From Leptogorgia sarmentosa (Eukaryota): a stretch of DNA of 64,000 nt. Position 1 is the stretch's first letter; every line of letters begins with the position of its first letter. Made by a program: the position numbers and the translations under genes. Shown here one piece after another: positions 2,800 through 62,070 of this stretch. The notes beneath the pieces were generated by a model. It saw only the letters and a list, made by a program, of their open reading frames with translations. It did not search any database and was not told where the DNA came from. Location: positions 12,276,001 to 12,340,000 of the forward strand of contig OZ210885.1 in NCBI GenBank assembly GCA_964658305.1. The letters run 5' to 3'.

Positions 2800-2870
2800 G
2801 CGTTGTTGATTCAGTGGTAGAATTCTCGCCTGCCACCCTTGAGACCGGGGCTTGATTCACAGCAAACGCA
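2800..2870 (+). pseudogene. tRNA-Gly (GCC) pseudogene
   Basis: TCAGTGGTAGAATTCTCGCCTGCCAC matches Gly-GCC, but the anticodon 3' stem and B box (GGCTTGATTC) are broken. Confidence 0.8.
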
Positions 2871-2953
2871 GATGTTTTCATTTTGTTGCATTTCAATTGC
2901 AACTCGAGAAAAAATGTGGGTTTGTAACACAGACATGATCTCGAAATTGTAAC

Positions 2954-3025
2954 TCCCATGTGGTCTAGTGGTTAGGATCTGGCGTTTTCACCGCCATGGC
3001 CCGGGTTCGATTCCCGGCGTGCGAA
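2954..3025 (+). tRNA. tRNA-Glu (TTC)
   Basis: TCCCATGTGGTCTAGTGGTTAGGATCTGGCGTTTTCACCGCCATGGCCCGGGTTCGATTCCCGGCGTGCGAA followed by a T7 Pol III terminator. Confidence 0.9.
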
Positions 3026-8556: not shown

Positions 8557-9393
8557 CTACTCAGGTGTTAACTCCGCCATGTTTTGCGCTGACCACTGAG
8601 CTATAATGCTAACTAAATCACTTGATTCAAGTATTGAACCATTACAATACAAAGAAATCAGACAACATAAACTCATAGGCACACATTGGCGTCCTGCATT
8701 TTCACCAAAGACCTCAATATTACCTTGGCAATAAGGTACATGAATAGTTTGACTAGGAATATTGTAAGTAGGTCCTGGGTTAACTTCAATGTCTCCACAA
8801 AAGGTTAATTTGCAATAATTTATTTTGTGACAATGTCTTGAATTCTTGTAGGTACTTTTTTCTCTTCTATCCACATCTATTACATTGTGGTAAAATTCCT
8901 TTTGTTTTTGCTTGTTTTTATAATTAAACTTTATACGTGCTGAGCTTCTAACTGAAGCTGAGGTGTTACAATTTAGTTTCACTCTAATAAATTGATTAAA
9001 ACAATTGTTACTTATAACTCTCTGATGTTCATGATTAAAAACTTGTACATAGTGAATAACATGAGTTGTTGGTATATTTCTCTTCATTTTTTGCCAAAAG
9101 GTTCTTCGTAACTTTCTACTCTTCCTTACTGGACGACAGAGTTGCTTGGTTGGAGTTCTGCTTGAGTCTTGATCACAAGTATAGTGCTGATTTAAATGAG
9201 GATTGTATTCAGATTCCTTGCATATCAACTGACTTTGATTAAATGTGAATTTTACATAACAAGATCGTCTAGATCTGCTTTTCATATTGGATTTCATACT
9301 TTTGGAATTCATAGCATTCAAATTTAAGTTGTCATTTATAGTTAGGTCATGTATAGTTGAGTCATTTATGGTCATGGTTGGTGAAGTTGGCAT
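8557..9393 (-). pseudogene. Truncated ORF with 2A-like motif and herpes tegument (C76)-like cysteine protease start; probable Helitron/Helentron 5' fragment
   Basis: GDIEVNPGP (8770-8796) followed by CQGNIEVFGENAGRQCVPMSL; similarity is lost near 8605. Confidence 0.6.
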
Positions 9394-20374: not shown

Positions 20375-21743
20375 TTATCTCCTTCCAGCACATTCTTGAA
20401 AACATCCTGCATCCGACAGCTGCAAACTATTCAAAGCGGTATTTAGTCTTAAACAAATTGCAAATGGCCCCTTTACTTTTCTTTCTTCGCCGAATATGAT
20501 TGAACAGTCATCGTCATTGTCTTCATCAACATCATCATCACCAGAATCATCACCATCATCACTACCATCATCACCATCACCATCACCATCACCATCATCA
20601 TCATCATCATCACCATCCTCATCACCATCATCACTACCATCACCATAATCATCACTATCATCTCCACCATAACCATCATCATCACCATCATTATCATCAT
20701 CACCATCATCACCATCACCATCCAGATGACCGTCACCCACATCGTCCCTTACATCCCAGTCCAGTTGTTCTGTGTGGAGATCAGGTGTGTAGCATACACC
20801 ATAGGCAAACACTTGCTTAATATTATTCTCATCGGTAAAGCAAATCAGAGAGCCAGAATCACCGTCCTTCAGAAATTCCTCCGCATTTCCTTTGATTACC
20901 ACTGCATTCTTGAACACAAGTTTACCCTCGCTAGACTTCTCATTGTAGCTGGCCCGAAAAATTTTGCCGGTATGTTCAGGTTCACAAGGAAAACCGTACT
21001 TATTGACTTCAACAGGATTATTACTCTCTCCACCGAAGGTTGTTCTGTTGAACAATTCTGACCATATACTTTGCCAATCAGGCGCATTTACTTCTGATAC
21101 ACTACAATTGATATTAGCATCTTCACGAACCTGTATGGACATGATATCAGTGTCGCCATTGAAGCAAGATTCAAAAAATGCACCCAGAGGAACATAGTTG
21201 GCAGTTGCGTTCGCGTTATCATTCTCGTCAAACCGTTCTAACTTTTCTTTATAAAAGTATTCTTGGTTTTTTGCAAAGTTCTTATAGTCGTCGATTGAAC
21301 TCCGAATATCAAGAAAAGCTTGCTGCTGAGTAGCTTGACGAAAACATTGTTCATCAGTGTTGCAGCCAACATGAAAACAGGTTAGGGCATAATGTCTTCC
21401 ATTTTGGAAACAGAACATTGTTAAGGTTCCCGATACTTTACGACTGTCGGATTCCTCGGACATAATTTCATCATCTACGTTTAGTGGATTTGCTTCAGTA
21501 GCTTTGTTGACAGCCACAACACCACCCCCCGATGCCAAACTTGATAGGTACTTATATTCCTGTTTTTGTTTCGGTTCACGAAAAAGCTCAAAGAATTTTT
21601 TGGGATCACATTTGAATTCTTCTTTAATTTCATTGTAAACCTCTGATGTTTTCTTTCCACTTTTAACTGTTACATAAATGTGAGGACGTGGTAATCTTTT
21701 GTTTGGGCCAGTAACTCCATATGCTCCACGTAGCCACGAGAAA
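20375..21743 (-). CDS. Terminal exon: trypsin-fold (NAL1/S64-like) serine protease with poly-Asp insertion
   Basis: GTLTMF...ALTCFHV (His 21371-21373), DTDIM (Asp 21146-21148), GDSGS (Ser 20855-20857); acceptor CTGACAG before 21743; stop TAA at 20375-20377. Confidence 0.8.
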
Positions 21744-24700: not shown

Positions 24701-27700
24701 ATTTTCCCCGAGCCACGGCGCGAAGCGCCGTCCGGGCGTTACCCCGGGGCACGGGCAATAATTCCGCACGGCTATTTACACCCGGGTAATGGGCAGCACA
24801 GCGGAGTTATGTGTATGGGTGGTCATCACTTATCCCAAATTATTGTGGACTATCATGAAGAGCCGAAGCTTTTTAAAGCTTTTGGTCCTTTGGAAAGGTG
24901 AAAACAAGGACAAGATCTACGCTGTAAGACTTGAAAAGCCTTCTCAGAAGATATAAAACGCTGAGAAAGGGGACAAACGACTACGAATTGGAACACAAGA
25001 TAAGTTCGTCAATATGTTGTCGGCAGTGAACTTTTGTTTTGCGTATTTACTATCTACAGTCTACTATTTGGATGAAAGGTCGCCGTAGGCGCATTTAATC
25101 TATCCACGGCTCAATTCCAGAGTATAAGTTTATCATTTTGAAGGCAAGACTTCACAAAATATTTACAAACTTTACCCCAAAGAACAAGAGCGAACATTGG
25201 CTGGAAATTGTTTCATATCAAAGACTGACTTAATTAAACCGTTTTATGCAAATAAATGTAGTATTTCGCACCAAATTCAAGTTTATATTAGTCCTAATAA
25301 CGTACGGATAACAAATGATTCACGAAATTTAAAAAAAATGTCAATAAAACAAAGATAAAGGATGATATTTTGAATGTTTGCAAAAAATTACAGAAATATG
25401 AATTTCCGATCTTATTGCCATGACAACAACCTCAGGCAGCCTTTGAAGTACTTCATGTTTCAAAAATATAGTTGCATTAAATTGGTTAGTAAGGCGAGGG
25501 GTTGCTGCATATATGTATTTCTAGTTTAATTTGGCATAGATGCACGAATTGCAGTTGGTTTTACTAGCACATGTATGTTTTTAATCGACACTTTTTTATC
25601 TTAATTGTAAAAGCATCGATGTGGCAACGTCCTGAAAACTTGTATCGATGCATTACGTTTTTTTTTAAGTAAATATCTAAAGTTTGAAAACACAGTGGTT
25701 TGCACGAAATTGAACTAACCATGCAAGTACATTTTGTCATGACTCAAAATTTTCATTAAATAGTTTAGGCATTGGGGGTGTCACACCCCTCCCCCCCCCC
25801 CCAGAAGTTACGCCCCTTACGATTATATTGCTCATACTTGTTTAATCGTATTTACTGGGCCTTTCGAATGTTTTACATGCTTTAAGTAATTATTTTTAAA
25901 TTAAAATTGAACTTTTCGTACGCTTTGGAGTTTCTCGCAACACTCACAACAGTTTCTGAACTTTTCGACTTAATTTTTTAAATTCTGTTTGTATATCCCA
26001 GTTTGTACTTTTTTATGGCAGTTTATATCAATGTTTTATACTGAAACAATTAGACAACTCTGCCTCGTTGTCTAATTGTTAAATAGTTTTGGCTGCAGGG
26101 GTGCTATACTGTGGGATTGGGGTCTGCAGAGCATGGACAGGCTAGTAGCACTTTAGATAAATCTGAATTTTCTGGCCTTGGTACTGAAAAGCAAAAATCA
26201 AAAGTAAGCGCAAGACTCTGATTTCGCATGCTCATCAACGCGATAAAGTTCTTAAATGCAAACGTTTCCTGGCGCCACTGAAATTTTCGCTGGAAAAATG
26301 TTTTTAAACAAACAACTGTGCTGCAAGTTTAATGGACGGTCTTTCGCTGTATTACACCATCAATGCACTTGAAAAAAACTTGCACCTACTAGCACCTCCC
26401 CTTGATCGACCACTGGCTATTAATTATGTAGTGAACTTGGTTCTGAGCCGCAAGTTATACACTAGCATTTTGTTTACAATTAACACCAATTATTTCAATA
26501 CGCTTCCTATTGCTATAGACAAAAATGACAATAATTTATACCTTTTGAATTTTTCATGCACATCTTCCCTAATGTTGTATTCAGAGTCAAGAAATGTTTC
26601 TTTCAAAAAGATCACTTCATCTGCTTTAATATCCACTTCCTTTTGAACATCGACTTTATTTGTTTTATCCAAACCATGTGTTATCCTGTGTTTCGAATCA
26701 TCAGAGGTCCTAAAAACATGGCCAGGAAAAGAGTTTACATGTTACAACACTCGAATAAATGCATTGCCCTCCCTTTTTACCTTGCGCAGCCTGCTTGCCG
26801 GTTAAATGCTTGATAAGCGATAATTAAATTGCACAACAAAATCACATAGAGATGAGAAAGGTGAAACGAACATAGAGTGGGCGTACAAGTTAAAACTGCG
26901 GGACAAATTGAAGTTTGCTAATAAGAACTTCGGAATTTAGGCCCTGGACATGCCCTTTTAAAACTGTTTCTTTTTCAAGGTGCTCTTACTAAAAACTAAA
27001 GGCGTATTTTTTTTCAAACATCTGCAAATGTATAAGATTTTTTTGGACAATAGTAAGGCAGCAAATGAGTGTTTCGTGTGAGATTGTTAAATTCAGCGTA
27101 CAGTATTTGTCTGCTCGTCCAGACACGATCGCAAAAATAGCTCATCGGCCTGTCGCTCATGCATTTCACAACAAAACAATTATTTGTTAGGATACGTTGC
27201 CATATGCTGTAGGTGGAAAACCACCGTATGCCGAGAGCACATGATCAGTTTGCAAGCATTAAATTTGTCCTAGAATATGCGGTACCAGTTTCAGGCTATT
27301 AGACTATATGGTATATAATTATAGGCATTGAAATGCTCTATAAATAGTCTTGAAAAAAATATATAGTCTTAATCTTGAAAAAATAGTCTGCAAAACGAGC
27401 CATGTTTGGCTAATCCAGGAATCGGACGCAAACAAATGAAGTGAAATGCGCATGAGCAAACCATAATTAGCAGCGAACGAGTTTTGATTAAATGCGCATG
27501 CTTGAACTAAATGCGCATGCTCAGTAAAATGTTTGCACCAATTATTTGCAGTTGAAGTGATATTTGCAGGCAGTTATTTCCAGGTAAATTTTTTAACCAA
27601 TCAAAATTGAGTAAATAATAAACTGAATAATGATTCACTTTGGTGGGTGCATTTAAGACCGCATACTTTAATGCAGCTGCATATAAAATGCCAAAATCAT

Positions 27701-30700
27701 ACCGTTCAATCTTCCCAGGTACTTTTCTTTTTCCAGAATCTTCTTTTCCTTTTTCTTCTCCAGAGTTGCCTATATTTTAGTATAAAAATATTATTTTTCA
27801 CTACGATATTCTTGTTATTTAACTTTTTTTAATTAATGCGGATTTATATAGAGAGGGTCTGCAGGATTAGCGCAAAATACAATAAACTGATTGATTAGAC
27901 TATTTATATATTAATTTGTTGAATGTTTCATAAGAAATTCCAGTGTTGCGAACTAGATTTGAGATCAGTTGTGTTTATTTACTTTGTTACTCTATCGCAA
28001 GTATGGCTGCCAAACAGTCAAGGCGAAGTGGAAAAAACACTTCCGATTTGGTATTACTACAGCTTTCTCACTCAACATGACAATTAAAAAATGTTAATTT
28101 ATTGAAATTATTCATCTTCCTTTTCATTTCACGATAGAAAAATGTTTTCGCCAAAAATGTTTTCTTAGTACTAGAAATTATTTCTGAAAATATAGAACAG
28201 AAATTAACTTTAAACTTACGTAAATCAACGGGGTATAGTATTTTTTTAAAACGATGAATTTAAGTTAAGATAAACTGCAGGTTTTCGATATAAATTTATA
28301 TTGCAATTTTTTGCCATAAAATAAACATGCAAAAGATTTTTTATTTGTTTCGGCCATTACGTATTTAGGATTCCGGACTGTGGTCAAATATCGTAAATTC
28401 CGCGCGCTGCTGCAGCCAATCAGATTGCAGAAAACGCTAGGCTTCCGCGCGCTGCTGATTTACAAAAAAATACACTGTGGTTATGTGGCTGTGGATTGGG
28501 CGAGGGAGTACATAGAATTAATAACGACATAGTTTGTACCTGATTGAGACGCAAATTTATTGAAACGCAGAAAGCAGACCCGCCCACGTTTCAGACCAAC
28601 ACAAACCATTCCATTTGAACCACATGCTATGGCTAAAACATCCGAGTCGAAATGAAACTCTTCAACACACTCTTCATTTGGTAGGTTCCACAGTTTCAGC
28701 GTCTTATCTCGTTCCGAGCACGACAAAAGAAATTCAGCACCAGGCACCAATGCTAACGCTATGATATCCTTGGCATTTGGAATTGGAAATCTGTAGAGAA
28801 CCTTTCCAGTTATGAAGTTCTCGATCACCAAATAATCATGACCTAAAAGTGTAATTTACAGTTATAGTACCTGCAAAGACTATGTTATTGGTGGCACGTT
28901 TTGCTTGTTACAAGCGATTATATTATGTACACAAGGCATAATCAATTGCAACGTAATTTTAAGCTTTATAGGCATTTTATCCACGGCATGCTGAAAGATT
29001 TCAATCACGATACGCTTGGAATTCCTAAATATTGCACAAACACAACGCCGACTTTATCGGACATTGAGCCAGAGACGCAAAAGCGGACGCCCCCATTAGA
29101 CCAACAAAATTTTAATAAAAGGCAATACAAACTGGCAAATGTAAAGAAATTAAACTTGTGTTTTGTATTTGCTCAAATGGAATATTGAATATCTATTCAT
29201 TGTGTACATGTAAGACCTCTCTTGTTCATACGCTTTGTGCAAGCTCCTGCATAAATATGTCGCAGGGACCGCGCACCTGGTTTGAATGCGTGCGTGGGGG
29301 GGGGGGGGGGGGGGGGTAAAGTGACCTTTGGTATTCTCTAAAATGGTTTCACGTCCAACGGGCAGTGTGGTGTTACCTTGAGATTGCGCTTAACTGCGAT
29401 GCCAGGTCAGAATTTGGTATGTACGCATGTTTGTTTTTTTTATTGGTTGCCTGACTTCTTCGTGGATGGATGAACTCTATATTATACTGTGTTTTGAAAA
29501 GACTCGTCTGCAGGCATTTGTGCAGTAGAATCAGCAACAAGAGCGGGTGCACAGAATGTAGGAGAGTTAGGGTTATGTTTGATGCTTTTCATCTGGTATT
29601 CCTATTTTACTTTCTTGAAACCATCAGCCAATACTTGATGGATTGCGAGGTCACACCCTATGCATTTGAGATTAGGAAATAAAATAATAACAATGAAATC
29701 ATTTACCTAATATAGCCACAAGGTTGCCAGAATTGTTAATCCTTAAAACTTTCTGTGGACAGCAACTACTGCTGCTTTTTCCCTTGGTTTCGTTCAAGTT
29801 CCACTTTGTGATCATCTGTTCGGCTCGATTGGAATATTCATTCTCATGGACACAAGAAAGAGAGTTGTGGACCACGCGCATTGTTTCAATTCTCCCCATG
29901 AAGTAGTATTCGTAACTGTGCACAACTCCGGTGGCATTTATCCGATCATTCTGTCAAAATAATCAAGCCAATGCTCAAGATAACGTCCTTCCATTAAATA
30001 TTTTCCCAATAAAACGCTATTCAGTTATAAAACAAATCCTTATTATTACGAATTTCAAATTCGAGAATTCGGATTCGGAAGGTTAATTTTCAGAATAGAA
30101 ATTCTTGAATTTATTTCACATCATATAAGTATATGAAATATGGATGAAGGCAAGGGGTAAAGCTTTGTTCACACTAGTGGGTTTTTGTATGCACTTCGAA
30201 AAAATAAAAGACGCATCGATCGATTCGGGTCAACACTACCCTTTTCGTAACGTATTTGACTGTCCAGCAAAACGGCCGAAAACGCTGATTCGATCGCAGT
30301 GTGACGTAAATCAGCAATGTACACATGTTCAGCTTGTTTTATCAGCGAATTTTTGGTCCACAAAACCGATTTCTTACGAATTGGGCCCGTCGACGGCCAA
30401 GATAAAACGGGTAATCTTAGAACGGGTAATCTTACAACAGCTATTTGCCTTCAGTATCAAGTCATGCTGGTGTTGTACAAAACGAAATGTAATTGCAAAC
30501 AAACAATTATGTTTGCCAGAAACATAGGAAATTCCATATCAGGCTCACTCGCCAAGTTTGGTGGTAATTTTTCCGCAACCAGTACACTTAAGATCTGGTT
30601 AAGAGCGGCATAATCAGTTCTAAAAGTATCCGTTTTCGAGTATCCACACTATACGATATGAATACGCTTTCAATAGTATTAACTTTCAACAGTGTTTTCA

Positions 30701-33700
30701 AATCGATGCGTTTTTGGTCATTACACGGAGCCAAATTGAGCGTGTTAGTATGGACACAAGGTTTTACTGTGGACTTCACACCTAAGTTTACACTTTCATC
30801 CTAAGTTTAACACCTTCGGCACATCTTAAAGGAAATTCATTTTAAAAAATCGTTTTAAGTTTTCAATCGTTTTAAAAATCAATGTCACAGTGTAAAAATT
30901 GTCACAATCATGTCCTTGACACGAAAATATAAAAAATGGGACGTCTGGAAATCTAGGTTAAAGTTTGTGCAAATGAAGTTGAAAGAAATGGATTACGAAC
31001 TTCAATATTACGTAAGCATGCACGCGAGTTGAGAAGAAAAGAAAAAAACATACGTCTTGAACAAAATTTCTTCACTTGTTCTGATAGGATTCTAATGGAT
31101 TAATTTTCTGTGACCATACGAACAGATCTAATCTAAATGCGATTCTCGGTAACAATGATATGAACACACCGTGTATTTTTATTTTTTTAAATACTTTTCA
31201 TAGTGCACGGAACAAAGCGAGACAGCACTTTGTCCGACCGATTCCAATACCGCTACAAGCAAAACACTATTAATTTGGTTCGGTTCTTCCAGATAAGGTT
31301 GAACTATGAGACATTCTTCCAAATTTTAACTCCAAATTTCCAAAATGAAGCTTGGGACGAAGTTGATATGCAATATTTCTACAAGCGTGTCATAATGTGT
31401 ATGTGCATGTACCATTTAACATCATGAAATTTCAATTGCAGCTCAACCTACAACAAGTGACACGCCCAAAAATAACATTTGAAAATCTCGTTTGGAAAAT
31501 GACATACATACCTTTTTGCCAGAAGCAATTATAATATCATCGGAGAAGGGCACGAATTCTAACGCGGAAATGGAATCAGAACAAATGTTGTCATGTGACC
31601 ATATTAACGTCGGCAAGTTTTCTTCAACATTCCAAAGCTTCACAGACCCACCAATAGACCCCGATGCAAAGCGACGTGAACGATCATGACCTCCTAGCTC
31701 GCCTTTAACTTGAGAAATGGCATCCTCGTGTGCTGGGAATTTCAACTGCGATTTATTGTTAAGATGAAACCATAACAGTTCTCCGTCATCACAACCAAGC
31801 AATGCATAGCTTGAACCAAGAGCAGTAATGCAGGTGACTTTAACATCTGGTTGACCCAATTTCATACTGGCCTCGATATCATTAAAAGTTCTTAGTTCGA
31901 TTCTGTTTACCTCGTTAACAATAACAAATCGGACATCATCACTTAATACGCAGACAAAACGTATGGCGACTCCAGATTCGGTCTTTGCGAATTGAACTAT
32001 TTTAGAACACTCTATGTCGACCAGCGACAATGTTCCTGAACTGCTTCCAGACAGAGCAAATTTCCCATTTGATGTGATGTCAATTGCTGTAACTATCGAG
32101 TCGTCAGGGTGACCTGCATGAAGGAAGTAAAATGTTTAATTAAAGTCATTTGAAGTATTCAAGTATATGCGACGCTTAAGCGGTGTAGCCTGCCAATCAT
32201 TCAACAATATCATTTAGACAACAAATAATCTTTATAGGTGCAGGAATAGAATTTTATTCAAATCCAGGTAGGAAAAGACATCGCTGATAACGGAAACGCA
32301 AAAATCAGCTGTCGTTCACTGTTGTGAATAAAAGACTAGTATACTCGAATAAAGGCCGTTTTCCATTACAGTCGTTTTGCCCGCGCGGGCGGAGCGAACG
32401 ATTTTAACTTCGTCAAAAATCAGTCGCGCGGACACGACGAATAGCAGAGATTCATGCTGCCATATTTGCAGGTCAATTGTTACCCGGAGTGTTTTGCATT
32501 CATTTTGCATTCCGTCAAACCCATAACTGACGGGCGAAATAGACCATTGATTTGCAACTGGATCCTGCATTCTTATAAGTATATAGGATGACCCAGAAAA
32601 CACAATATAAGCGGCAACGATAAGTAACGTAGTCAGCATAGTTAGTGATTATGCACTAAAAACGACATATTTCATGTAAATTTCGTGAGCTTCAAGCGTA
32701 TAGAAGAAAACAGGAATTGTCAGTGTTCGATTCGACTATTATTGCGCATTGGATTGGATTGACTAATTTTCGAAATCTCGTAGTTTTGGTATTCTTTCGC
32801 TACATGCATCACGACCTAAATAGCGGATACAGGTTTGTAGATACTCGTGACGAAACCGTTTTAATTGTATTCTCCGTAATCCTTTAACGAACATAATTTT
32901 ATATATATGTATACATAATCAGAACGGAAAATAGCCTGTAAAGCTAGCCAAGACAATTTCAGAGCTAACACGTAAATCGAATTCAATATTTGACTCATTC
33001 GCGAGTGAATGCAGTGGTTTTTCGGGAAAAATATATGCTCATTTAAAACGGATATTTCACACATATAAATTATTGTGTGTATGATTATAGTAAAAAATCC
33101 TGTAGTCGCATCAAAGACTTAAAAGTATTTAGAATTTTAAAATAGTCCTTGATTTACCCACCTGCATTATGGTCGACCCAACTCTTACTTGAAAGTTTCC
33201 GGTGGAGAAACACATTTTTCTGAAGCGAGCTAAACAAAAGATCTTTGCCGTCGGGTGATATTACAGGTGCGACCCTCGGCCGCTGACGTACAGTCGATAC
33301 TTGCAAAGAGTCGAGATTGATTTCACAAATATGCATATCAGGGCTGCATGTGTAAATCATGTTGCGATCGCATGCTATTTCCACTGTATGGGACGCGGGT
33401 AAAATGACTTCTTTCAAAGACGCATCAGGCTTTTGCCAGTCCCAGATGAACACATGGTTATCTTTGCATCCAATTACAACTTGCAACCCATCAGAACTAA
33501 AGCGAACAATTTCAGGTGTGCCATCGCTATCAATTCCATTGATCACACTGCCATCAGACAAATTCCACACCTTAAAAAATAAAGGGAAAATTAATATTCT
33601 GTATGAAGCTAAAAACTTGTGACTATATAATGATTTATCAAAACTAATTGTGAATATAATAACTAACAAGCAGAATAGGTTTCGTTACTTATATTATGCG

Positions 33701-36700: not shown

Positions 36701-39700
36701 AAAATCAAAGTTATAGTTTATGCCAATCAACCGAAATCTGCGTATTACATATACTGACACCTGCACGCTGATGATTTCGTCTGTGTTTTCTTCATGAATT
36801 TTTAATGCGTTTCACAAGTACAGTATATGTACCCATGTTTTGTAAAAATTGTATACATTCCTAATAATGAATACGCCGAGTCGGAACAAACAATTGGAAC
36901 AAACAATTCAAAAAATTTCTTGTGTTTGGATGTTTCTATTGTTTTGTATTTCTATATGCACAGTATGGCTAGTAGCCTTGTGTACTACACCTTTATCGAG
37001 GACTTCGTTGAGACCTCGAAGATATCCCCATCCCCATCCTTTGACAGCGACACGACATAGCGATCATCAGCAGATACTGCAACATGTTTTGCCCATTTAA
37101 GGTCACCTATTAATCAGGAAGGAAAAAATAATCAATTCAGAAATTAAAGTAAACATCAAAAGGATATTTTCTGTAACAGTCACAAATGATCAGGTTGGAC
37201 GCGTTATTAAAATTAATGCAGAAATCTTTGCAATTTAAGGATTTATATACAATGAAAAGAAAAATCTTAAGTAGTGGATTAAATACTGTATCTAATATAA
37301 CTGGATACTTTAACAAGCAGCAAAAGTTCTACTCACCAACCAAACGATAGGCAGTGAATTTGTTTTCTAACGTTTAGGTAGTAAGTAGAACTTTTGCTGC
37401 TTGTTGATGTTCTTATATCCGGGACCTAGACGGGTCGCTTAATGAACCTTATTCTAGCGGACTAGACCATAAACTATCAAAAGAATGGACTGGAAACGCA
37501 CGCTGAAACTGCACAACAACAGTGATACGCTTGATGTGGAACCCTGTAACTTCACATTAAATAAATTGTATAATAATAATAATAATAAAAAATCCATTCC
37601 AAGACTTCCTATTGACATATTTCAAACCAAAAGAGAAATGAGTGTGCAACTATCCACTGTTCAAGGCATAAAAGCACCGTTGCAATAAGTGGTGAGAAAT
37701 TTTATATCTTGATATTTTGCTTGCGTTGTGTTTGTCATTGTTGTTAGTCTAGGACCTGTATATGAGTTTGTATGCACTTCATTTAGGACAGATAATCTCA
37801 ACTGTTTTAGGGTAAATTGACCATGCCGGTCAACATGGCATATGTGCCAAAACCTGAATCCGGGACGAAAGTGCTCAAAATGACCCCGCCCTGAAACGGC
37901 AGTGTCGACACACCTCTAACTTCCAAAAAATAGAATCAAAAGCTTTTCTGAAGTGCTTATTGTGTTCAGAAGGGTTGCTTTTAGGGGTGGTCATTGGAGG
38001 GGAAAATTTGCATAAGTATCATATTTTACTAGAAAATACCCATACCACCTCAGCAGAATTGCTGATTATGCATAAAATCACAAATATGCCTGGCAGAGTT
38101 TTAATTCTTTCATTTTCCAAAAAATATTTTTATAGGATGAAAAACTATGCTTAATTCAACATAATTATTGTAGATTTCATCAAGGTTGTTATTGTTTTGT
38201 TCACATATAATACATTTGACTTCACTTACCCCCCACCAAAATACGATTTTAGCCATATTTTGCCATCTTGTTCGCTTTTTACCGCCGAATCTCGCAAGTG
38301 TAGTCCAATCGTTTTACTTTATCATAATAACAGACAATTAAAGAGTATTTTTACCAAGTTTCGCCAAGTTTTGAAGCAGTGCAGTGTATTTTATCTTCGA
38401 TATTGTCTCCCATGACATATCGTCAAATATGCCGCCATTGTAATGCGTGGCCGTTTCATCGCCCGATAAATGCCAATTCTTCGCCTTTATCCGCTTTTAC
38501 TTTGCACTATTTAAAAGTACTTTGTTGTAGAATAATTCCAATCAAAAATTGAAAACGTTAGTTGCACATGAACGAAAAAAACCACCCTCAAACTTTCAGC
38601 ATCAACATTACAAATACAAAATTTAAAAGTTACGCGCAGCATTCGCGAAAACTCCTCTGGGCTACATGCCAGGGGGGGTAATATTTTTACAAAGTGCCAC
38701 AACAGCAGCCCAACATGGTATCTTATTGCATTTTTTCTCAATAACGATAAAAAAAATAATTAAGAAGTACTTCTACATTTCTTAATAGCAGAATCCACGA
38801 ATTCTGTGCCATCATTTTCCCCTTGATTCTTTTTATAGACAGCAGAAAGCGCTTCGTGGAAATATTCAAACCCCCCTGTCAGGTAGCCCACGAGGATTTT
38901 TCCCGAAGTTGCGCGTGAATTTAAAATTTTGTATTTGTAATGTTGAACCTGAAAGTTTGAGGGTGGTTTTTTTCGTTCATGTGCAACTAACATTTTCAAT
39001 TTTTGATTGGAATTATTCGACAACAAAGTACTTTTAAATAGTGCAAAGTAAAAGCGGATAAAGGCGAATAATTGGCATTTATCGGGCGAAGAAACGGCCA
39101 CGCATTACAATGGCGGCATATTTGACGATATGTCATGGGAGACAATATCGAAGATAAAATACACTGCACTGCTTCAAAACTTGGCGAAACTTGGTAAAAA
39201 TACTCTTTAATTGTCTGTTATTATGATAAAGTAAAACGATTGGACTACACTTGCGAGATTCGGCGGTAAAAAGCGAACAAGATGGCAAAATATGGCTAAA
39301 ATCGTATTTTGGTGGGGGGTAAGTGAAGTCAAATGTATTATATGTGAACAAAACAATAACAACCTTGATGAAATCTACAATAATTATGTTGAATTAAGCA
39401 TAGTTTTTCATCCTATGAAAATATTTTTTGGAAAATGAAAGAATTAAAACTCTGCCAGGCATATTTGTGATTTTATGCATAATCAGCAATTCTGCTGAGG
39501 TGGTGTATGGGTATTTTCTAGTAAAATATGATACTTATGCAAATTTTCCCCTCCAATGACCACCCCTAAAAGCAACCCTTCTGAACACAATAAGCACTTC
39601 AGAAAAGCTTTTGATTCTATTTTTTGGAAGTTAGAGGCGTGTCGACACTGCCGTTTCAGGGCGGGGTCATTTTGAGCACTTTCGTCCCGGATTCAGGTTT

Positions 39701-57700: not shown

Positions 57701-60700
57701 CAATATGCACCTATACAAATAAGAATTAGACATTCTAGGGTATGATTCGGCTTCTGGACAGCCGACGTGTCATTGAATATATCGCGCAGCGTCCATTTCA
57801 GTTGATGCTTTCAAATTATGCTATAGAATAAAGCTATAAACATCATTTACAGCATGGATTTTTTGAAAGTAGTGCAAACGAATAGTGACATCTCGGTAAT
57901 CAGAGCTTCTAAAGTCACAGAAGTGGCAACCAGCAAGCTAGCCAGTCTCTTCATACTAATCACATAATTTTGCCGACAGAACACTTTTCCCATCGCCGGG
58001 ACCTCCATTTAGGATCATAACTCTCGATTTCGTATCGTGAAGCCATTTTTCAAAGTCGTCAAAGAACCATTGCGTGGTCCCTTCTTGAAATTTTCGAATA
58101 AGCTGGTCAATCTTTCCATTAAATACAAATTTAGCTAATTTTCAGAAGATTTTACATTTTCTACCACAGTTCGCAAAAGAAGAAGCATTTAACTACTATG
58201 AGCAACATTTAAGCATTCTTGTAGCAATTGAGCTGCGTCAACTTTTCACGAGCGTTTTTTATTTGGTTGTGACCTACGCAGTTAACCCGCCCAACATTAA
58301 AATTCATTTTTAGTGATGATGAGTGCGACAGCGCGTACTGCACTGCCAATGCTTTCGGATTCCCACTAAATCTGGGAAGTGTTAGAAGAGATATTGCATT
58401 CCTGTTGCCGTTTATACTAACGAGATATTTTCCTACAAGAAATTCTTAGAAACAGAACGTTGAAGTCCGGGAAGGTTCGTGGGGGACAAATTTTGAAAAT
58501 TGAATGGCTGCCTGATACTAGAGTACTCGGTAATTTTTCCTGCATAATATATTCTGCATAAGTAGTTTCCCATCTTTCCTAGTTAATTGAAACACTACCT
58601 TTTTTCTCTGCAAAATCTGAATGCTCCGTCCTCAGCTTATTCTGACGACATTCGATTTCATCTGTTTTCTCCGCCAGACGTTTAAGCTCCATTGAATGAT
58701 GTTCAAGTTTCTCAGCTGCAGAACTTTCAACCTCTTTAATTTTGCGAAGCAGTGTGGATTGTATGTTATCGAGTTTTTCCATCACTGGATTTATCTGAAT
58801 AGATAAATTTGATTTAGTAATATTCAATTTACGGGCTGAAACAAATTTGAAATCACTCTCAACTTCACAAAGCGGTTTAAGGTGTGTGATGTGATAATAG
58901 TTATAATCTAACGTTATTAGTATAGGTAATTGTATCGTTTCGAGTGCAATTTGGAAATAACATGCACGAGTGAGTTTTTCTAGGACATTCTCGTTTTGTT
59001 CGGCCGCTAATATGCGAAGTTGTTTCGCTTGTCCACCGAGCACTTGCTTGTACGAAGAGAAATCTCTGTCTTGTATTATAAAAAGGTTGTCAACATCGAC
59101 TGCTGTTAATATCACTTTTAAGTGTCTGGTTCACATTCATCGCCGTTTCTTTTTTAATTCACAGTTTTCATTCAGCATAAAAACAATCGATCAAAATATA
59201 TACAGTACTGTGCAAAAGTTATAGGCACCTCGTGAAAAAGCATTTGACTCCACCTTATTGTAAACTTATACGATGCAAAGTTATGGGCACCTCGTGAAAA
59301 AGCATTTGACGCCATCTTATTGTAAACTTATTTTGAACTTATACGATAAGTTTACAATAAGATGGCGTCAAATGCTTTTTCAGGAGGTGCCTATAACTTT
59401 TGCACAGTACTGTAATTCTATATAACATCTCTTGCGGAATATTTTGTACTCGCGCTGTATTTCCTTTTCAACGCAACACTTTATCCGCACAATCAACCAC
59501 AAGACTAGATATCTTTGGTGGTATTTTCATTTTTCGAACTATTTGTAAGCCCCTCTATCATTTGTCTGTTGCTAAACGAATCTACCCAAAGAGGCAGCCA
59601 TTATTTCATCCTCGAATAATTTCATATTTTTTATTGTTCGCCAGAAATGGCTTAATCTTATTGGCTAGCTTTATAGCTAATCTCAGCCCATCAGAAGGCG
59701 TAAACATCTGAAGAAATTTGCACTGAATTTCTTTTTTTGGCACTGAATTTCCTTGTTTGGTACTGTATTTCCTTAAAATTGCACTTCTTTCAACCAATCA
59801 GAATCGAGAATTTTTTTTTAAGTATATTATTAGATTAGAGATTAAGATGAGTATGTAAATTAATGAGACAATATATGTGAGGCGAGGACAGAGTTCGTTG
59901 TGCTGTGGACGACCAGACAAGTAAAGAGGGCAGGGTCACAAGGATTCGAGAAGAATTAGTTGGAATTGAAAGCGTGTATCGAGGTAACTGAAAACAATCT
60001 TAGGCGAGATGAGTAAAGTAAAATTGTTAGTTCCTGAATGAAAAAAAGGTGACGAAGCGCAACTAGCGTGGGGTGAACTAAGCTCCAACACTGAAAAGAA
60101 GCAACTACGGTCTGATGTCCTGAAGTTTAAAGACAGTCGTTCTATACTTGGAGTGCTCTAGTCGATAAACGATGGAGTTATATCCAACTCTCGCCCAGCA
60201 AAGGTTAGAAACCGAAGCCAGTCGCTTAAACAGTTAATTCCGAAATTAAATAGAATTACTGAAGGAGAACTTGAAGACAATTACTGAGCAAGTCAAGAAT
60301 CCTCGGGACAGAAACTACGCATTGTGGCTAGCTGAAGAGAGAAGACGGAAACTCTGTGGACTTGGTTTGTTTGAACAGCGACGCACGCCCGTGTGCTTAA
60401 CCGTCTGAGCTTTATCAATATTTTCCTGACTTTAATGGTTGGGATTTTAGAGAGAGGGAAATTGCTTGGCCGATCTTTTACGGGCTACCCACATGTGAGT
60501 TGTGCGTACCTATATTCTCCTCTCTTATGGATTGGCCCTTTTTTCTCAAAATTTTCGAATTGCCATCGAATAATTTTCACCTCACTGTGAGGACGAAATA
60601 TTTCAATGCTTGGTCGACACAGATGTAAAGTCGAATACGAGCTATAGTTTTTGTGACGACATTATACATAAGGTCTATTGAAATTTGATATGCAAGTTTC

Positions 60701-62070
60701 CTAGTTTGTAAACTTTTCAGAAATTTGTAGTTCAACGTTGGAACCTCAATAGCAATTTTGCAAGGAAAAATAATTGTTATCTATCAAAATTTAGGTTTAA
60801 TGGAATGTCCCAGCTCCTTGGGCTAGTTTTTCCCCCCTAAAAGAGTATTTATATTAGTATTTATCAGTAATTGATATGTAGTGTGTTTTATTTATAAGTA
60901 CACGCTTCGTCCTAAGTATTCTATTGCAAACGTGTCCCCAAAAAAGTATGCACATGTTTGACTTGCAACGTTTAACGGGTAAAGCAAAACTCATAAAAAC
61001 AGCATTATCGAAAAAAAGCACAGATTGCGTTCCCACGCTGAAAATTTGCGCTCGCTCCCAGTTGAAACATGTCTTATATTAATTTGAACAGCGTCGTCCT
61101 ACTTATTCAACGACTGTTAAATGAAACATCAAAAGTTCCTCAAACCTTTGTGGCGTCCAAATCGTAGTTTTTGATACAACGGCAAAGTTCAGCTACACTT
61201 TCTGCAATTAGTTTTGCGTGACGACCATCAACAAGAATGTCTGGAAATAATGAAGAAAATTTATCTTGAGTATCACAAACACTATAAATCTATATGCGTT
61301 CATTGAGAATCGCATTGAATTGTATATATGGTAATAAATGAATAAAATTGGATAATAATAATAATAAATGAATAATAAGAGAAGTTCTTTCAACACATGG
61401 GGTTTTTCTTACTAGAGATAATAAATGATCTGCGCAAAACATATTTAAAGGCATGATGAGATTTCGGCAATAATGCTAATAATACAGTACCTGTTTTATT
61501 CCAGAAATCTAGTTGATCACAAATTATTTTTTCGTCAGCTGTTGGTAAATTTAACATTTTCACCAAAGATTCCATTCCTTGAAACGAGTCATTGAACAAG
61601 TGTAGTGTCCATTCAGAGATGTTACAATGAGCCCATGGGTTTCTGATGTCCGACCGTACTTTCTTTGCTTCAGCTGCAGCGCCAGAAGATACGAAAGGAG
61701 CTGCCTCACCCATAAGAGTCAAAAGTGCTGACATATCCATGGTCTCGTCAAATCCAGTGCAATGTGCCATAAACTCCTTGAGGAATAGTCTCGCCAGCGA
61801 CAGAGGATCTTTAACAGCATAATCATAGGCGGAATCTAGCTTGTGGATTTTGTTGTTGTTGATGTTCTTATACTGTAGCTTCTGTTTAGAAGGGGATAAC
61901 TTATTCTTGTGTTTTGCAAAATCTTGCTTTTGAATTTCATCAGGTGGTTGGCATAAAGAATGATACCATTTCCCAAGTTCAGTGGCGACAACGTTCCTCA
62001 ATGCAGGTGCAAGAACTTTGGTAAAGGCAATGCCAACTAAAACCCAATGTTGTTCTTCCTCTGATATCAT
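20375..62070 (-). CDS. Multi-exon STAND gene: HEPN - coiled coil - NB-ARC - WD40 - trypsin-like serine protease (APAF-1-like core)
   Basis: Proposed exons 62070-61491, 58835-58599, 57207-56876, 45016-44377, 43933-43511, 37106-36991, 33570-33162, 32113-31512, 29950-29707, 28842-28540, 27769-27703, 26709-26542, 21743-20375; all GT-AG and phase-compatible, total 5490 nt, no internal stops. Small exons may be missing. Confidence 0.7.
21820..22933. mobile_element. hAT-family MITE
   Basis: TIR (G/C)AGTGGCGTAGC(T/C)AGC; perfect 8-bp TSD TGGGAGAG (21812-21819, 22934-22941). Confidence 0.88.
23087..25525. repeat. Large imperfect palindrome (head-to-head Helentron/HINE-like units)
   Basis: ACTAGAAATACATATATGCAGCAACCC... 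mirrored at 25525; GC-rich centre 24579-24807 with a GGCGC-GAA-GCGCC hairpin in each arm. Confidence 0.85.
23249..23976 (+). mobile_element. GA-hairpin/CTGATTGG element inserted in the left palindrome arm
   Basis: Absent from the right arm; inverted repeat TTATTTTTTTCC / GGAAAAAAATAA; CTGATTGG at 23289; hairpin 23834-23970. Confidence 0.8.
26542..27769 (-). CDS. Two linker/pro-domain exons (27769-27703, 26709-26542)
   Basis: GNSGEEKGKEDSGKRKVPGKIE R TSDDSKHRITHGLDK...EDVHEKFK; phases 1-2-2 link the last WD40 exon to the protease exon. Confidence 0.55.
27935..28474 (-). mobile_element. Relative of the 23249-23976 element in reverse orientation
   Basis: 27935-28140 is the reverse complement of about 23580-23790; CCAATCAGA at 28416. 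Confidence 0.6.
28540..37106 (-). CDS. WD40-repeat exons (37106-36991, 33570-33162, 32113-31512, 29950-29707, 28842-28540)
   Basis: IK|VWNLSDG, VFIWDWQ, GHPDDSIVTAIDITSNGKFALSGS, AHEDAISQV, SVKLWNV, DKTLKLWNL; canonical splice sites. Confidence 0.8.
35981..36150. repeat. Palindromic element with degenerate minimal hammerhead-like motifs (Penelope-associated type); derivative at 37312-37405
   Basis: Plus strand CCGGACGAGGGCCCTTTTGCTGGAAACGTC (36083-36112); minus strand CCCAGCGAAGGGCCTTTGCTCGAAACGTG. Confidence 0.5.
37745..39805. mobile_element. 2.06-kb foldback element with arms of about 950 bp
   Basis: TAGTCTAGGACCTGTATATGAG... mirrored at 39805; outer ~850 bp almost identical; spacer about 38700-38850; no coding content. 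Confidence 0.9.
39806..42200 (-). pseudogene. Helitron/Helentron 5' coding remnant (2A motif, OTU protease, DUF6570-like region)
   Basis: GDIELNPGP (41910-41936); IVGDANYFFRSVSQQLYG...TWADNIIIQAVAN...ELHCVST (OTU); GPEYICTC; LTPLEERLISPRIPFMQV; ISFAPGEG...DKDSEFLFFP; many stops; ~114-bp tandem repeats at 40940-41200. Confidence 0.75.
43511..45016 (-). CDS. NB-ARC exons: Walker B through winged helix/HD2 (45016-44377, 43933-43511)
   Basis: CLVVVDDVW (Walker B), LLITTR (sensor I), CRGLPLAL (GLPL), LAIFPED, VHDLL (MHD variant), APAF-1-like helical region ending CPQLL. Confidence 0.9.
45692..46115 (+). repeat. 5' LTR (424 bp)
   Basis: Differs from the 3' LTR by 15-bp and 10-bp indels and about 4 substitutions; TATATAA at 45996-46002. 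Confidence 0.95.
46192..52155 (+). CDS. BEL/Pao gag-pol polyprotein
   Basis: DUF1759-type gag, three Cys/His knuckles (first degenerate, CPMG), protease LIDSGSD, RT YLPHH/RIVFDA/FYVDD, RNase H HHFSDAS, integrase H-H-C-C plus VDFFGP/SDNGTNF/WERL. The native C terminus LLEESSND* lies after the hAT insertion (stop 56240-56242). Confidence 0.95.
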   Translation: MAERISNASGDDISRLDNSRRGYLSSLTRIFNQIDPLLNDYSHVVLVKELQSKLRTAWANYQSCCSRYTDENVTAYQVTQNQLAEQCHKKQEYDEKIDSYLKDSIVYYSDQGVEGFAQSLNKTPTGSVRSASTRGSRISNFSDASQRLRETRDAAAKAAIVHKHVESKKRREVELELKRMELEIKQREFELQQRYELAQIEIADEVQRAKDDAELANLEAELARQEFVELAKRTEDLDLDEIPSSPYIREVTLQAQRQVIGSQRRGLNLSSAFRGEPKVLRQPTHPMHNVSRTTQPTQPPTSSTAEFSSPTLLNTLVTTIEKIGFSHDFPTIEIQKFNGSPHHFPVFRHRFDQMINSKPIEESVKMSRLLQLLEGPPLDAVRRYEAVDGGLTKALKLLEERYGQPCQIVRACVDTLTKGASIVSNDNEALQKFADEAQVMYDTLKSMDCLAEMNVDNLERMISRLPKWMQSKFTEHLRKIEHGGRVMPTFKDVVNFLKERASVANHPFFSNSLMGNKERVPNSGGRQRIKGQTILNTNANEVTPCPMGAKPHPLYRCHVFKSKTAEERGEFVKKSGICFNCINSTSHTSRLCKSKFRCQVPDCGKTHHTLLHRLTPPPIKAIRTAEIGTSTHESPPASASLPPADQKLQHHMDSSKEVLLQVIPIKIISPDGKMVTTYGLIDSGSDVTLIDQSLVEQLQFKGQPDRLHFSTIDSKDIQEAGVKVEFKMGAVDNNDDDDMIDVQNAWSIKDLNIPLKHQVIHRNVGQWPHLQHVPFPEVQRNKISVLIGTDVQEAFIPLEVRKGMRSEPLAIRSCLGWSILGNCSKAANNSSRQSFLINHVAQEISLDNQLEKFWRVESHGVSPRTNQPVMSIEDRDAVKIIENTISKSDGHYQMGLLWKEENRCMPYNRPLAEARLSHIRKRLLRDPILKAKYRAIIDDYVVRGYARKLTQEEANARSNVTWYLPHHPVVNPNKPGKVRIVFDAAARFQGTSLNDNLLHGPNFTNDLVGVLLRFRHHKVALAADVEAMFHQVKVIDEDTDALRFLWWSEDFDKPPDDYKMLVHIFGAASSPCCANKALKATATDNAEKYHPEVVHTTERDFYVDDLLTSVPTVGKAVWLTEQSRAILAEGGFRLTKFASNERDVLTAVPLEDRADPTLNLDLDDLPITRALGLHWNTNSDTLHFKIIRCDKPYTKRGMLSTVSSLYDPLGLLSPFTIRAKVLLQELWRIGVTWDEEIEESLLKRWQDWQDDLLNLSKVIIPRCYQLSLLQQPIEFQLHHFSDASRVAYASVSFLRMSDEAGNIHCAFLIGKSRNAPLRDWSIPRLELQAAVLSCRLHRLIEDELDLTISSTYFWSDSMTTLQYIKNTKRRFQIFVANRLNEIHDVSSPSQWNHVPGPVNPADDGSRGMNIPAMLSSGRWWHGPEFLWKDKEYWPISHVGDVPDNDKEIRSTKQVSVLVSGSPLLRFLERYSSWSKLQIMMAWLLRFLQYVSNPHHQVKPSSISITELREAAVHIVRLVQMHHFHEEVETLQSPKSNVLARSKLATFNPILMDGVIRVGGRLKHAPISYEAKHPMILPNNDHVSTLIIRHYHEILGHAGREHVLSFVRQRYWILDARILTRRILRNCLTCRKRSEAAMQQIMADLPKERLVPYEPPFTYTGVDFFGPFFVKRGRSSVKVYACIFVCFNSRAIHIEDVSSLETDTFIQALRRFISNRGSPKRIWSDNGTNFRGAEKELRLSIQNWNQESIKTAMRSKEIEWEMRPISQWQFQTPVASHMSGVWERLIRSVRKSMKAVIGHPNAYVTKETLRTIFAEVVTILNSRPLCASSDDPNDFEALTPSHFLLQRQNVALPPGHFTNHDLNCRKQWRRAQFLVNCYWKRWIKEYLPLLQSRLKWRREKRNLRKNDLVLVADKGTPRGKWSLARVTRVFPGRDGRVRTVEVKTKDTTFTRPITTLCLSGGNSVQEVGGQSFANFRQICFDCSYFFLF
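52062..56209 (-). mobile_element. hAT DNA transposon nested in the BEL element
   Basis: 17-bp TIR CAGTGGCGGAAATTCAG; perfect 8-bp TSD TTGTGTCT (52054-52061, 56210-56217). Confidence 0.97.
52216..55771 (-). pseudogene. hAT transposase (ZMYM1/TTF zinc finger, DUF4371, dimerisation domain), 3 exons, 2 frameshifts
   Basis: Exons 55771-55610, 55050-54809, 54686-52216; motifs WLVYS..FCFWC, LAFRGHDE, MLDETSD, DGAANM, HCACHALNL, TRW, ERSFSKLKLIK; frameshifts near 54400 and 52620. Confidence 0.9.
56305..56703 (+). repeat. 3' LTR (399 bp)
   Basis: TGTTGTGGCT...CCTGTACA, preceded by the PPT and followed by TSD ATCAG. Confidence 0.95.
56876..57207 (-). CDS. NB-ARC Walker A exon
   Basis: PYGLRNLPAHMVERP...VGIRGMGGLGKTVLA...VVWLDIG; AG acceptor and GTATG donor. 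Confidence 0.9.
57890..58145 (-). pseudogene. NACHT (NPHP3-N-type) pseudo-exon
   Basis: KLAKFVFNGKIDQLIRKFQEGTTQWFFDDFEKWLHDTKSRVMILNGGPGDGKSVLSAKLCD*YEETG*LAGCHFCDFRSSDYRD in one frame with stops; Walker A at 57983-58006. Confidence 0.8.
58599..58835 (-). CDS. Coiled-coil exon
   Basis: ARKLNITK...MEKLDNIQSTLLRKIKEVE...LKRLAEKTDEIECRQNKLRTE; phase 1-1 splice sites. Confidence 0.7.
59203..59412. mobile_element. Tc1-family MITE with internally duplicated left arm
   Basis: TIR CAGTACTGTGCAAAAGTTATAGGCACCTC; TA on both sides; left-arm segment repeated at about 59273-59330. Confidence 0.88.
61491..62070 (-). CDS. First coding exon: HEPN domain (DZIP3/hRUL138-like)
   Basis: EEQHWVLVGIAFTKVLAPALRNVV, DMSALLTLM, VRSDIRNPWAH (R-x4-H); GTACTG donor. 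Confidence 0.75.

What the first reader, a model, noticed from the sequence alone, without database searches (positions are those of the whole stretch)
20375..62070. Double-effector STAND receptor: HEPN RNase - NB-ARC - WD40 - trypsin-like protease
Seen: 13 minus-strand segments with GT-AG ends join in matching phases into a 5490-nt stop-free frame. It carries RNPWAH, Walker A GMGGLGKT, Walker B VVVDDVW, GLPL, VHD, WD40 repeats, and H/D/GDSGS protease motifs. Established: R-x4-H is the HEPN ribonuclease signature; NB-ARC plus WD40 is the APAF-1 architecture; HEPN-fused STANDs occur in cnidarians; bacterial defence STANDs couple to nuclease or trypsin-like effectors. Inference: this may be an animal immune or cell-death receptor that oligomerises to activate an N-terminal RNase and a C-terminal protease in place of a CARD/caspase relay. 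I do not know this full architecture from described proteins.
Basis: partly seen in the sequence, partly recalled or inferred. Interest (0 to 1): 0.9.

Follow-up and report, generated by a model that had tools for sequence, protein, structure and literature searches.

The report
Coral immune receptor with captured protease
A gene that is likely from a soft coral encodes an APAF-1-like immune sensor with a likely RNA-cutting domain at its front, and its exons can be read in frame into an intact trypsin-fold protease that related corals attach to many other immune proteins; if the two are really spliced together, one protein would likely carry two killing enzymes, but the join is untested and a large part of the sensor is missing.

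Summary
Homologues correct this to 14 exons, 1847 aa. The best hits are octocoral proteins. NB-ARC, APAF-1 helical and WD40 parts are confirmed. The C-terminal domain is a NAL1-like trypsin-fold protease with a conserved triad and dN/dS about 0.3. The N-terminal domain is probably HEPN (R-x4-H in 11 of 11 rows; fold search inconclusive). The last junction is seen spliced in relatives. The WD40-to-protease link rests only on splice signals: none of 239 fetched proteins has both parts, and 18 of 27 STAND relatives inspected end at the last WD40 repeat (the other 9 end earlier). HEPN-STAND-WD40 is common in corals; the protease tail is the new part. A functional fusion has about 55% odds.

The parts
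61491..62070 (-). Exon 1: ATG and N-terminal all-helical HEPN-like domain; R-x4-H motif RNPWAH at about 61644-61627
   Evidence: 73% identical to P0014, 60% to P0006; motif in 11 of 11 rows; Atlas neighbours carry HEPN_DZIP3/DUF4559. A further upstream exon is not excluded.
61146..61240 (-).
   Evidence: 79% identical over 24 aa to P0014; AG/GT ends and phase 1 to 0
58599..58794 (-).
   Evidence: matches P0011, P0014, P0006
56876..57207 (-). Exon 4: NB-ARC start, Walker A GMGGLGKT at about 57073-57050
   Evidence: Pfam NB-ARC 27.4 bits; 74% identical to P0006
44377..45016 (-). Exon 5: Walker B, RNBS-B, GLPL, winged helix
   Evidence: Pfam NB-ARC 66.3 bits; best solved relative APAF-1, E 7.7e-17
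43511..43933 (-). Exon 6: VHD motif and APAF-1 helical domain, cut before its tail
   Evidence: APAF1_C 39.5 bits; 64-68% identical to P0006 and P0014
37107..43510 (-). Intron where about 385 residues of the family (helical tail and WD40 repeats 1-8) are absent; holds repeat elements
   Evidence: no specific match in six frames; inverted repeat and a decayed mobile-element remnant
36991..37106 (-). Exon 7: ninth WD40 repeat of the family
   Evidence: 67% identical over 24 aa to P0009 928-951; own WD40 HMM
33162..33570 (-). Exon 8: WD40
31512..32113 (-). Exon 9: WD40
   Evidence: 67% identical to P0006
29707..29950 (-). Exon 10: divergent WD40 blades
   Evidence: 30-35% identical to five homologues
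28540..28842 (-). Exon 11: last WD40 repeats; donor CAG|GTACAA at 28540; read-through stop ending at 28481
   Evidence: relatives end here
27703..27769 (-). Exon 12 (67 nt): predicted charged linker, phase 1 to 2; no homologue
   Evidence: 76% purine, reached by 41 of 35281 intronic 67-mers; best of 7 candidate mini-exons in the interval
26542..26709 (-). Exon 13: start of the protease module
   Evidence: 77-78% nucleotide identity over 26675-26540 to L002 and L003
20375..21743 (-). Exon 14: NAL1-like trypsin-fold serine protease; His codon 21373-21371, Asp 21148-21146, Ser 20857-20855; stop at 20375
   Evidence: Foldseek NAL1 E 2.4e-5; VIA Z 11.7, rmsd 4.2 over 205 residues; triad in 45, 46 and 44 of 48 rows; dN/dS 0.30-0.31
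20500..20750 (-). Asp/Gly-rich insert inside the protease, ahead of the conserved C-terminal segment
   Evidence: an insert of 7-186 residues lies at the same place in 16 of 16 homologues measured (alignment)

Best explanation
This is likely an octocoral APAF-1-like STAND immune receptor with a probable N-terminal HEPN RNase that likely captured a mobile NAL1-like protease module at its 3' end by exon shuffling, and it is predicted to be spliced into one protein with two lethal outputs. Shown: the exons, the open frame, intact NB-ARC motifs, the protease fold and triad, and the absence of the helical tail and WD40 repeats 1-8. Inferred: a ligand binds the remaining WD40 blades, the NB-ARC swaps ADP for ATP and forms a ring, and the HEPN domains pair at the hub and cut RNA. 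The tethered proteases would be concentrated, assemble as NAL1 does, and cleave a downstream death or defence substrate. A shorter form ending at 28481 may also be made.
For: (a) A consensus phase-1 donor lies within 26 codons of the last WD40 blade; such a site occurs 34 times in 41,696 nt, so the chance is about 0.02, a post hoc figure. (b) Exon 12 is purine-rich (41 of 35281 intronic windows reach this; one comparable mini-exon in 36 kb of introns) and supplies exactly the phases needed. (c) Exons 12 and 13 hold no in-frame ATG (translation), and no ATG-started exon with a G|GTR donor feeds them from 28480-27770 or 27702-26710 (0 and 0). (d) Of 100 protease-module proteins, none has its other domains matched in 21.8-64 kb of the window, and the Death exons of the nearest relative L003 are absent too. 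So the STAND is the only visible upstream partner. (e) The protease is under purifying selection (dN/dS 0.31 over 326 codons, 0.30 over 301; this averages both lineages). (f) The module is normally a fusion partner: helicase, PARP, TPR, SH2, SH3, Death, kinase-KEN, with partners scattered over its tree. In L002/L003 it is also entered in phase 1. (g) Both halves of the STAND group with the same HEPN-bearing relative P0006 (support 99 and 100) on end branches no longer than P0006's. (h) Precedent: STAND oligomerisation activates a fused trypsin that switches on a nuclease in bacterial Avs2 (10.64898/2026.08.25.746987), and NAL1 needs its hexamer for a correct triad (PMC12012508).
Against: None of 239 fetched proteins matches both the STAND part and the protease part; some searches were capped at 2000 aa, which would hide a complete form of about 2230 aa, but one search had no cap. 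18 of 27 STAND relatives inspected end at the last WD40 repeat and none goes further. Read-through at 28540 gives a normal-looking end with three AATAAA within 700 nt. The exon-12 acceptor is only average in pyrimidines (9 of 17), and exon 12 has no homologue. The missing helical tail and eight WD40 repeats leave about 13 of 21 blades (total counted by eye on P0009), which may misfold or remove autoinhibition. Contig depths hint at several near-identical NB-ARC copies but about one protease copy, so the tail is not a family trait. HEPN is below Pfam cut-off (E 0.17).
Confidence: 0.4

Rival explanations
1. The locus is a damaged copy or an assembly mosaic. The first WD40 exons were deleted, or two paralogues of a recently expanded family were joined, and the frame stays open only because both flanking introns are phase 1. 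No working four-domain receptor exists, although the parts were functional until recently or elsewhere.
For: About 385 conserved residues are absent, and the loss is not a whole number of seven-bladed propellers. The gap holds a large inverted repeat and mobile-element remains. Single contigs over exons 5-6 have depths of 912-3301 against 192-364 over the protease exon in the same three runs, a hint of several near-identical 5' copies. 8 of 13 introns are phase 1, so frame retention is cheap.
Against: All 14 retained exons are open with intact motifs; both halves have the same nearest relative and no long branch; the protease shows purifying selection.
Confidence: 0.25
2. Two units lie side by side. 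The STAND ends at 28481 as in all its relatives, and exons 12-14 are a separate protease gene (first exon unseen) or a recently orphaned tail of a Death-protease gene.
For: 18 of 27 relatives inspected end at exon 11 and none extends; the nearest protease relative (65% identical) is a Death-domain fusion; short stand-alone versions exist (L006/P0146); poly(A)-type signals follow the read-through stop.
Against: No start exon was found in either interval; no other partner domain is in the window; the donor at 28540 and exon 12 are unlikely by chance; an orphan would be expected to decay, yet 1369 nt are open with the triad intact.
Confidence: 0.2
3. The fusion is real but the protease is an input, not a second output. 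It acts as an integrated bait or self-cutting trigger on the sensor side, in place of the lost propeller, and only the HEPN kills.
For: The protease sits C-terminal to the sensor, where plant NLRs carry integrated baits and NLRP1 carries its self-cleaving unit (both recalled, not from a call). The characterised STAND-trypsin has the protease at the N-terminus. The same gene has lost part of its normal sensor. The variable acidic insert could be a fast-changing contact surface.
Against: The triad is kept, whereas baits often lose activity (recalled). Death-protease relatives point to an effector role like the CARD-protease of bacterial gasdermin systems (PMC10312443, passages).
Confidence: 0.15

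Closest known systems
APAF-1 (AP-ATPase/NB-ARC STAND with WD40 sensor)
   Same: NB-ARC with intact Walker A/B, GLPL and MHD-type motif, APAF-1 helical domain, WD40 repeats; best solved relative of exon 5
   Different: No CARD; HEPN-like N-terminus; family has about 21 WD40 repeats, of which this copy lacks eight; possible C-terminal protease
Coral DZIP3-like HEPN-NACHT/NB-ARC receptors (PMC8260672, PMC10236652)
   Same: N-terminal HEPN on a STAND; HEPN-NACHT-WD40 rows are common in the coral table, and HEPN-peptidase-NACHT-LRR rows exist
   Different: Here the NTPase is APAF-1-type NB-ARC. In the 29 'peptidase' places of that table none reads HEPN, NB-ARC, WD40, peptidase, and the word trypsin does not occur in that file
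Unnamed octocoral HEPN-NB-ARC-WD40 proteins P0006 and P0014
   Same: Nearest relatives, about 57-79% identical over the conserved exons, 32-46% over the linker and divergent ones; same N-terminal domain
   Different: P0006 has the full WD40 set and ends at the exon-11 equivalent; P0014 stops inside the WD40 region; neither has the protease
Rice NAL1 / peptidase S64-like trypsin-fold proteases
   Same: Top fold match by two methods; His-Asp-Ser triad; a small domain ahead of the protease
   Different: 14-20% identity; below Pfam cut-off (16.7 vs 26.1 bits); long acidic insert; fused to immune domains in octocorals
Bacterial Avs2-trypsin-MBL (10.64898/2026.08.25.746987)
   Same: STAND receptor coupling a trypsin-fold protease and a nuclease
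   Different: There the trypsin is N-terminal, the sensor is TPR and the nuclease is a separate protein cut by the trypsin; no PADLOC match to five exons tested

Membership tests
APAF-1-type AP-ATPase STAND | NB-ARC domain with Walker A, Walker B, RNBS-B, GLPL and MHD-type motifs | tested here: met
   Pfam above cut-off on exons 4 and 5; motifs located; APAF-1 best PDB hit
APAF-1-type AP-ATPase STAND | APAF-1 helical domain followed by a complete WD40 sensor | tested here: not met
   APAF1_C is present but its tail and eight WD40 repeats of the family are absent from the window
APAF-1 proper | N-terminal CARD | tested here: not met
   exon 1 has no Death-fold match in Pfam up to E 10; its relatives share an R-x4-H domain
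HEPN RNases (DZIP3/CXorf38/Swt1-like) | Conserved R-x4-6-H motif | tested here: met
   RNxWAH in 11 of 11 aligned rows, including two Mytilus proteins; weak HEPN_Swt1 match centred on it (E 0.17; E 0.01 in P0226)
HEPN RNases (DZIP3/CXorf38/Swt1-like) | All-helical HEPN fold | tested here: inconclusive
   model pLDDT 74, helical; Foldseek nothing at E<=0.001; VIA best Z 7.0 is an unrelated adhesin, Swt1 C-terminal domain Z 6.7 (rmsd 3.6, 119 aligned), HEPN toxins Z 5.3-5.7; Atlas first hit 0.98 with HEPN_DZIP3 on 11% of members, recognition 2063, under the 2300 mark
HEPN RNases (DZIP3/CXorf38/Swt1-like) | Dimer with a composite active site; RNase activity | not tested
Trypsin-fold (PA clan) serine proteases, NAL1/S64-like | His-Asp-Ser triad with GDSG nucleophile motif | tested here: met
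   His 45, Asp 46, Ser 44 of 48 rows, fragments counted as misses
Trypsin-fold (PA clan) serine proteases, NAL1/S64-like | Double beta-barrel fold | tested here: met
   Foldseek NAL1 E 2.4e-5, probability 1.0; VIA Z 11.7, and the 50 rows shown are trypsin-fold entries; the model lacked the acidic insert and the C-terminal segment
Pfam Nal1_C family | Curated score cut-off 26.1 bits | tested here: not met
   16.7 bits; relatives scanned reach at most 24.9
NAL1 | Hexameric cage needed for activity | not tested
   from PMC12012508 passages; no oligomer prediction run
Avs2-trypsin systems | N-terminal trypsin, TPR sensor, separate MBL nuclease | tested here: not met
   protease is C-terminal and the sensor WD40; 0 PADLOC families for 5 exons
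Single four-domain polypeptide | Spliced transcript joining exons 11, 12 and 13 | not testable with these tools
   needs RNA reads of this organism; only the exon 13-14 junction is seen spliced, in relatives

The most novel reading that the evidence does not exclude
Octocorals run a caspase-independent death and defence arm on an undescribed, expanded family of NAL1-like trypsin proteases that is shuffled onto Death, TPR, PARP, kinase-RNase, SH2/SH3 and helicase proteins. This gene is the first animal STAND to carry it: a one-protein inflammasome with an RNase at the hub and a protease on the rim, a eukaryotic parallel to bacterial Avs2-trypsin-nuclease defence.
Probability: 0.33. Interest if true: 0.85.

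Novelty: new variant of a known kind. Interest (0 to 1): 0.6.

Why it matters
Animal STAND receptors usually signal through Death-fold domains to caspases; receptors wired directly to enzymes are best known from bacteria and fungi (recalled). A coral receptor with both an RNase and a trypsin-fold protease would be a testable case of the bacterial design in an animal, and a snapshot of exon shuffling building a new receptor. The firmer result holds even if the fusion fails: octocorals carry many catalytically intact NAL1-like proteases fused to immune domains, including Death-protease proteins that look like caspase stand-ins. My nine literature searches listed no paper whose title or abstract start describes this module; the library lacks most subscription papers.

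Tried and rejected
No whole genome is held for this window, so paralogues could not be read. Sequencing runs: no RNA holder listed; the three runs listed are contigs of one sample and show no splicing. No contig listed bridges the exon 6-7 interval, which settles nothing. Complex prediction of an exon-1 homodimer was not available, so there is no result. A candidate exon at 35897-35709 had no homologue match. The idea that longer RefSeq isoforms extend past the WD40 end failed: the X1 isoforms differ elsewhere and end at the same place. P0006 and P0007 end in GN and GK at about the position of the 28540 donor; this could mean an old donor there, but their DNA could not be read, so it is not counted. 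Fold searches did not single out HEPN. A weak Pfam ToxA match on exon 10 (E 0.019, below cut-off) was treated as noise. P0171 and P0217 look like repeat-driven spurious hits. The careful protease tree did not finish; the quick tree is quoted (37 rows). Four look-ups of earlier findings returned nothing. In PMC10236652 five supplementary files were not searched and only 45 of 200 WD40 places in file 6 were read; the supplements of the Avs2 preprint were not read.

Full report
Setting. No genome is held. The best hits of all three queried exons are octocoral proteins (Dendronephthya, Paramuricea, Xenia) or unnamed records close to them, so the window is likely from a soft coral.

Observation. 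Homologues show an extra exon at 61240-61146 and the next acceptor at 58794. The corrected model has 14 exons, 5544 nt, 1847 aa, all introns GT-AG, and is open. Pfam passes its cut-offs for NB-ARC (exons 4, 5), APAF1_C (exon 6) and WD40 (exon 9), and APAF-1 is the best solved relative of exon 5.

Homologues carry about 385 residues between the exon 6 and exon 7 equivalents (P0009 539-927). tblastn and an HMM of 11 such stretches find only cross-matches to the known WD40 exons in the six frames of the window. A WD40 HMM places eight repeats of P0009 (585-918) ahead of the one that matches exon 7. By eye P0009 has 21 repeats, so about 13 remain. The interval holds a 950-nt-arm inverted repeat and mobile-element remains. 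Both halves of the STAND group with P0006 (support 99 and 100; 15 and 11 rows), with end branches of 0.20 and 0.29 against 0.34 and 0.47 for P0006, so this is not an old pseudogene. Contigs of three runs of one sample have depths of 912-3301 over exons 5-6 and 192-364 over the protease exon. The tool warns that depth is no copy number; I take it as a hint of several recent 5' paralogues, which keeps an assembly mosaic possible.

N-terminal domain. Ten relatives were found among 2487 candidates, all STANDs or STAND fragments, with WD40, TPR/beta-helix or ankyrin sensors, two from Mytilus. RNxWAH is kept in 11 of 11 rows. The Atlas neighbours carry HEPN_DZIP3, DUF4559 and HEPN_Swt1 on 11-39% of members (first score 0.98, recognition under the mark). 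Pfam gives only HEPN_Swt1 at E 0.17 on the motif. The helical model (pLDDT 74) has no Foldseek match, and VIA ranks Swt1 and HEPN toxins at Z 5.3-6.7 among unrelated bundles. HEPN is probable, not shown.

C-terminal domain. The model (pLDDT 77, 48 rows; acidic insert and last segment left out) matches rice NAL1 best in Foldseek (E 2.4e-5) and VIA (Z 11.7, rmsd 4.2, 205 aligned). His, Asp and Ser are kept in 45, 46 and 44 of 48 rows. dN/dS against L001 and L003 is 0.31 and 0.30. An acidic insert of 7-186 residues lies at one place in 16 of 16 homologues measured. A search without a length cap found 94 relatives. I scanned 36 proteins (5, 31 of the 93 others): partners include a helicase, PARP, TPR, SH2, SH3, Death and kinase-KEN domains, and none lists NB-ARC or WD40 (best five families shown per protein). 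The 7 of 10 looked-up clusters that have names are Xenia. Seven loci came from metagenome contigs. L002 and L003 run from the exon 13 to the exon 14 equivalent without the intron, L001 keeps an acceptor there, and L003 is a Death-protease at 65% identity. In the quick tree the window groups with L001 and L003 (support 99), and partners are scattered. The module is thus a mobile two-exon unit.

Is it one protein? For: a consensus phase-1 donor directly after the last blade (chance about 0.02, post hoc); a purine-rich 67-nt exon with the needed phases (41 of 35281 intronic windows are as rich; 7 candidates in the interval); no ATG exon in either interval; no other partner domain in 21.8-64 kb for 100 module proteins (three match a KEN fragment near 5 kb, downstream) or for L003; phase-1 entry also in L002/L003. 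Against: none of 239 fetched proteins matches both parts, and 18 of 27 STAND relatives inspected end at the last WD40 repeat while 9 end earlier; read-through gives a stop at 28481 followed by three AATAAA; exon 12 has an average acceptor and no homologue. Three searches were capped at 2000 aa, below the roughly 2230 aa of an undeleted fusion. I put a functional fusion at about 0.55.

Mechanism. Most likely (0.4): ligand on the WD40 blades, nucleotide exchange, ring formation, HEPN pairing and RNA cleavage, with the tethered proteases concentrated into an active oligomer that cuts a downstream substrate. All these steps are inferred from APAF-1 and HEPN biology (recalled), from NAL1, whose triad is set by hexamer assembly (PMC12012508, passages), and from Avs2-trypsin (10.64898/2026.08.25.746987, abstract and passages). 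Rivals: damaged copy or mosaic (0.25), two separate units (0.2), protease as bait or trigger (0.15).

Comparison with print. DZIP3-like HEPN is the commonest non-LRR partner of NACHT in nine cnidarians including Xenia and Dendronephthya (PMC8260672, passages). A stony-coral table lists many HEPN-NACHT-WD40 rows, HEPN-NB-ARC-TPR rows and three HEPN-peptidase-NACHT-LRR rows; none of its 29 peptidase places is HEPN, NB-ARC, WD40, peptidase (PMC10236652, passages and supplement file 6 in part). HEPN fusions to NACHT are in PMC3710099 (passages); trypsin effectors with Death-like domains in bacteria are in PMC8195603 (passages); CARD-proteases beside STANDs are in PMC10312443 (passages). Nine searches listed nothing on an animal NAL1-like module or a STAND with this tail; I saw listings only for the papers not named here.

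Verdict. The parts are real, the join is plausible and untested, and the sensor is incomplete. New variant of a known kind; interest 0.6. The shuffled octocoral NAL1-like protease family is the firmer lead.

Noticed in passing
window 45692-56704: Bel/Pao LTR retrotransposon in the intron between exons 4 and 5: an open frame of 1990 codons at 46183-52152 (+) with Peptidase_A17, DUF1759, integrase zinc-finger and DUF5641 matches; terminal repeats 45692-46116 and 56305-56704 are 93% alike.
   Followed up: partly
window 52219-55050 (-): hAT transposase pieces (DUF4371, Dimer_Tnp_hAT) nested between the two LTRs.
   Followed up: partly
window 37745-39805 and 39800-42200 (-): Inverted repeat with arms of about 950 nt at 96-99%, beside a stop-ridden remnant with a DUF6570 match and a 2A-like GDIELNPGP motif; Helitron-like by recall. 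It lies where the WD40 exons are missing.
   Followed up: partly
window 8560-9393 (-): 278-codon frame with a second 2A-like motif (GDIEVNPGP; label recalled), no Pfam match.
   Followed up: no
window 4847-5110 (-): KEN/RNase L-type RNase fragment (Ribonuc_2-5A 25.7 bits, cut-off 23.3), similar to the KEN domains of three kinase-KEN-protease proteins; it is interrupted by a stop. A second HEPN-superfamily domain 15 kb downstream on the same strand.
   Followed up: partly
window 1076-3025: Cluster of 7 tRNA gene calls: Asn, Pro, Ser, Glu twice, Cys twice.
   Followed up: no
L003:262-2379: Intron-less contig with two tandem Death-domain repeats, an in-frame stop between them, the second fused to the NAL1-like protease: a caspase-like layout on a trypsin fold.
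   Followed up: partly
proteins P0181, P0184, P0188, P0004: Other double-effector proteins exist in this module's family: kinase-KEN RNase plus protease (two named Xenia), and a Paramuricea TPR protein with two different trypsin-like domains.
   Followed up: partly
proteins P0219-P0226: The same N-terminal R-x4-H domain heads STANDs with TPR, beta-helix and MYND sensors in Dendronephthya and Mytilus and an ankyrin nSTAND3 in Mytilus, mostly without a Pfam name for the domain.
   Followed up: partly
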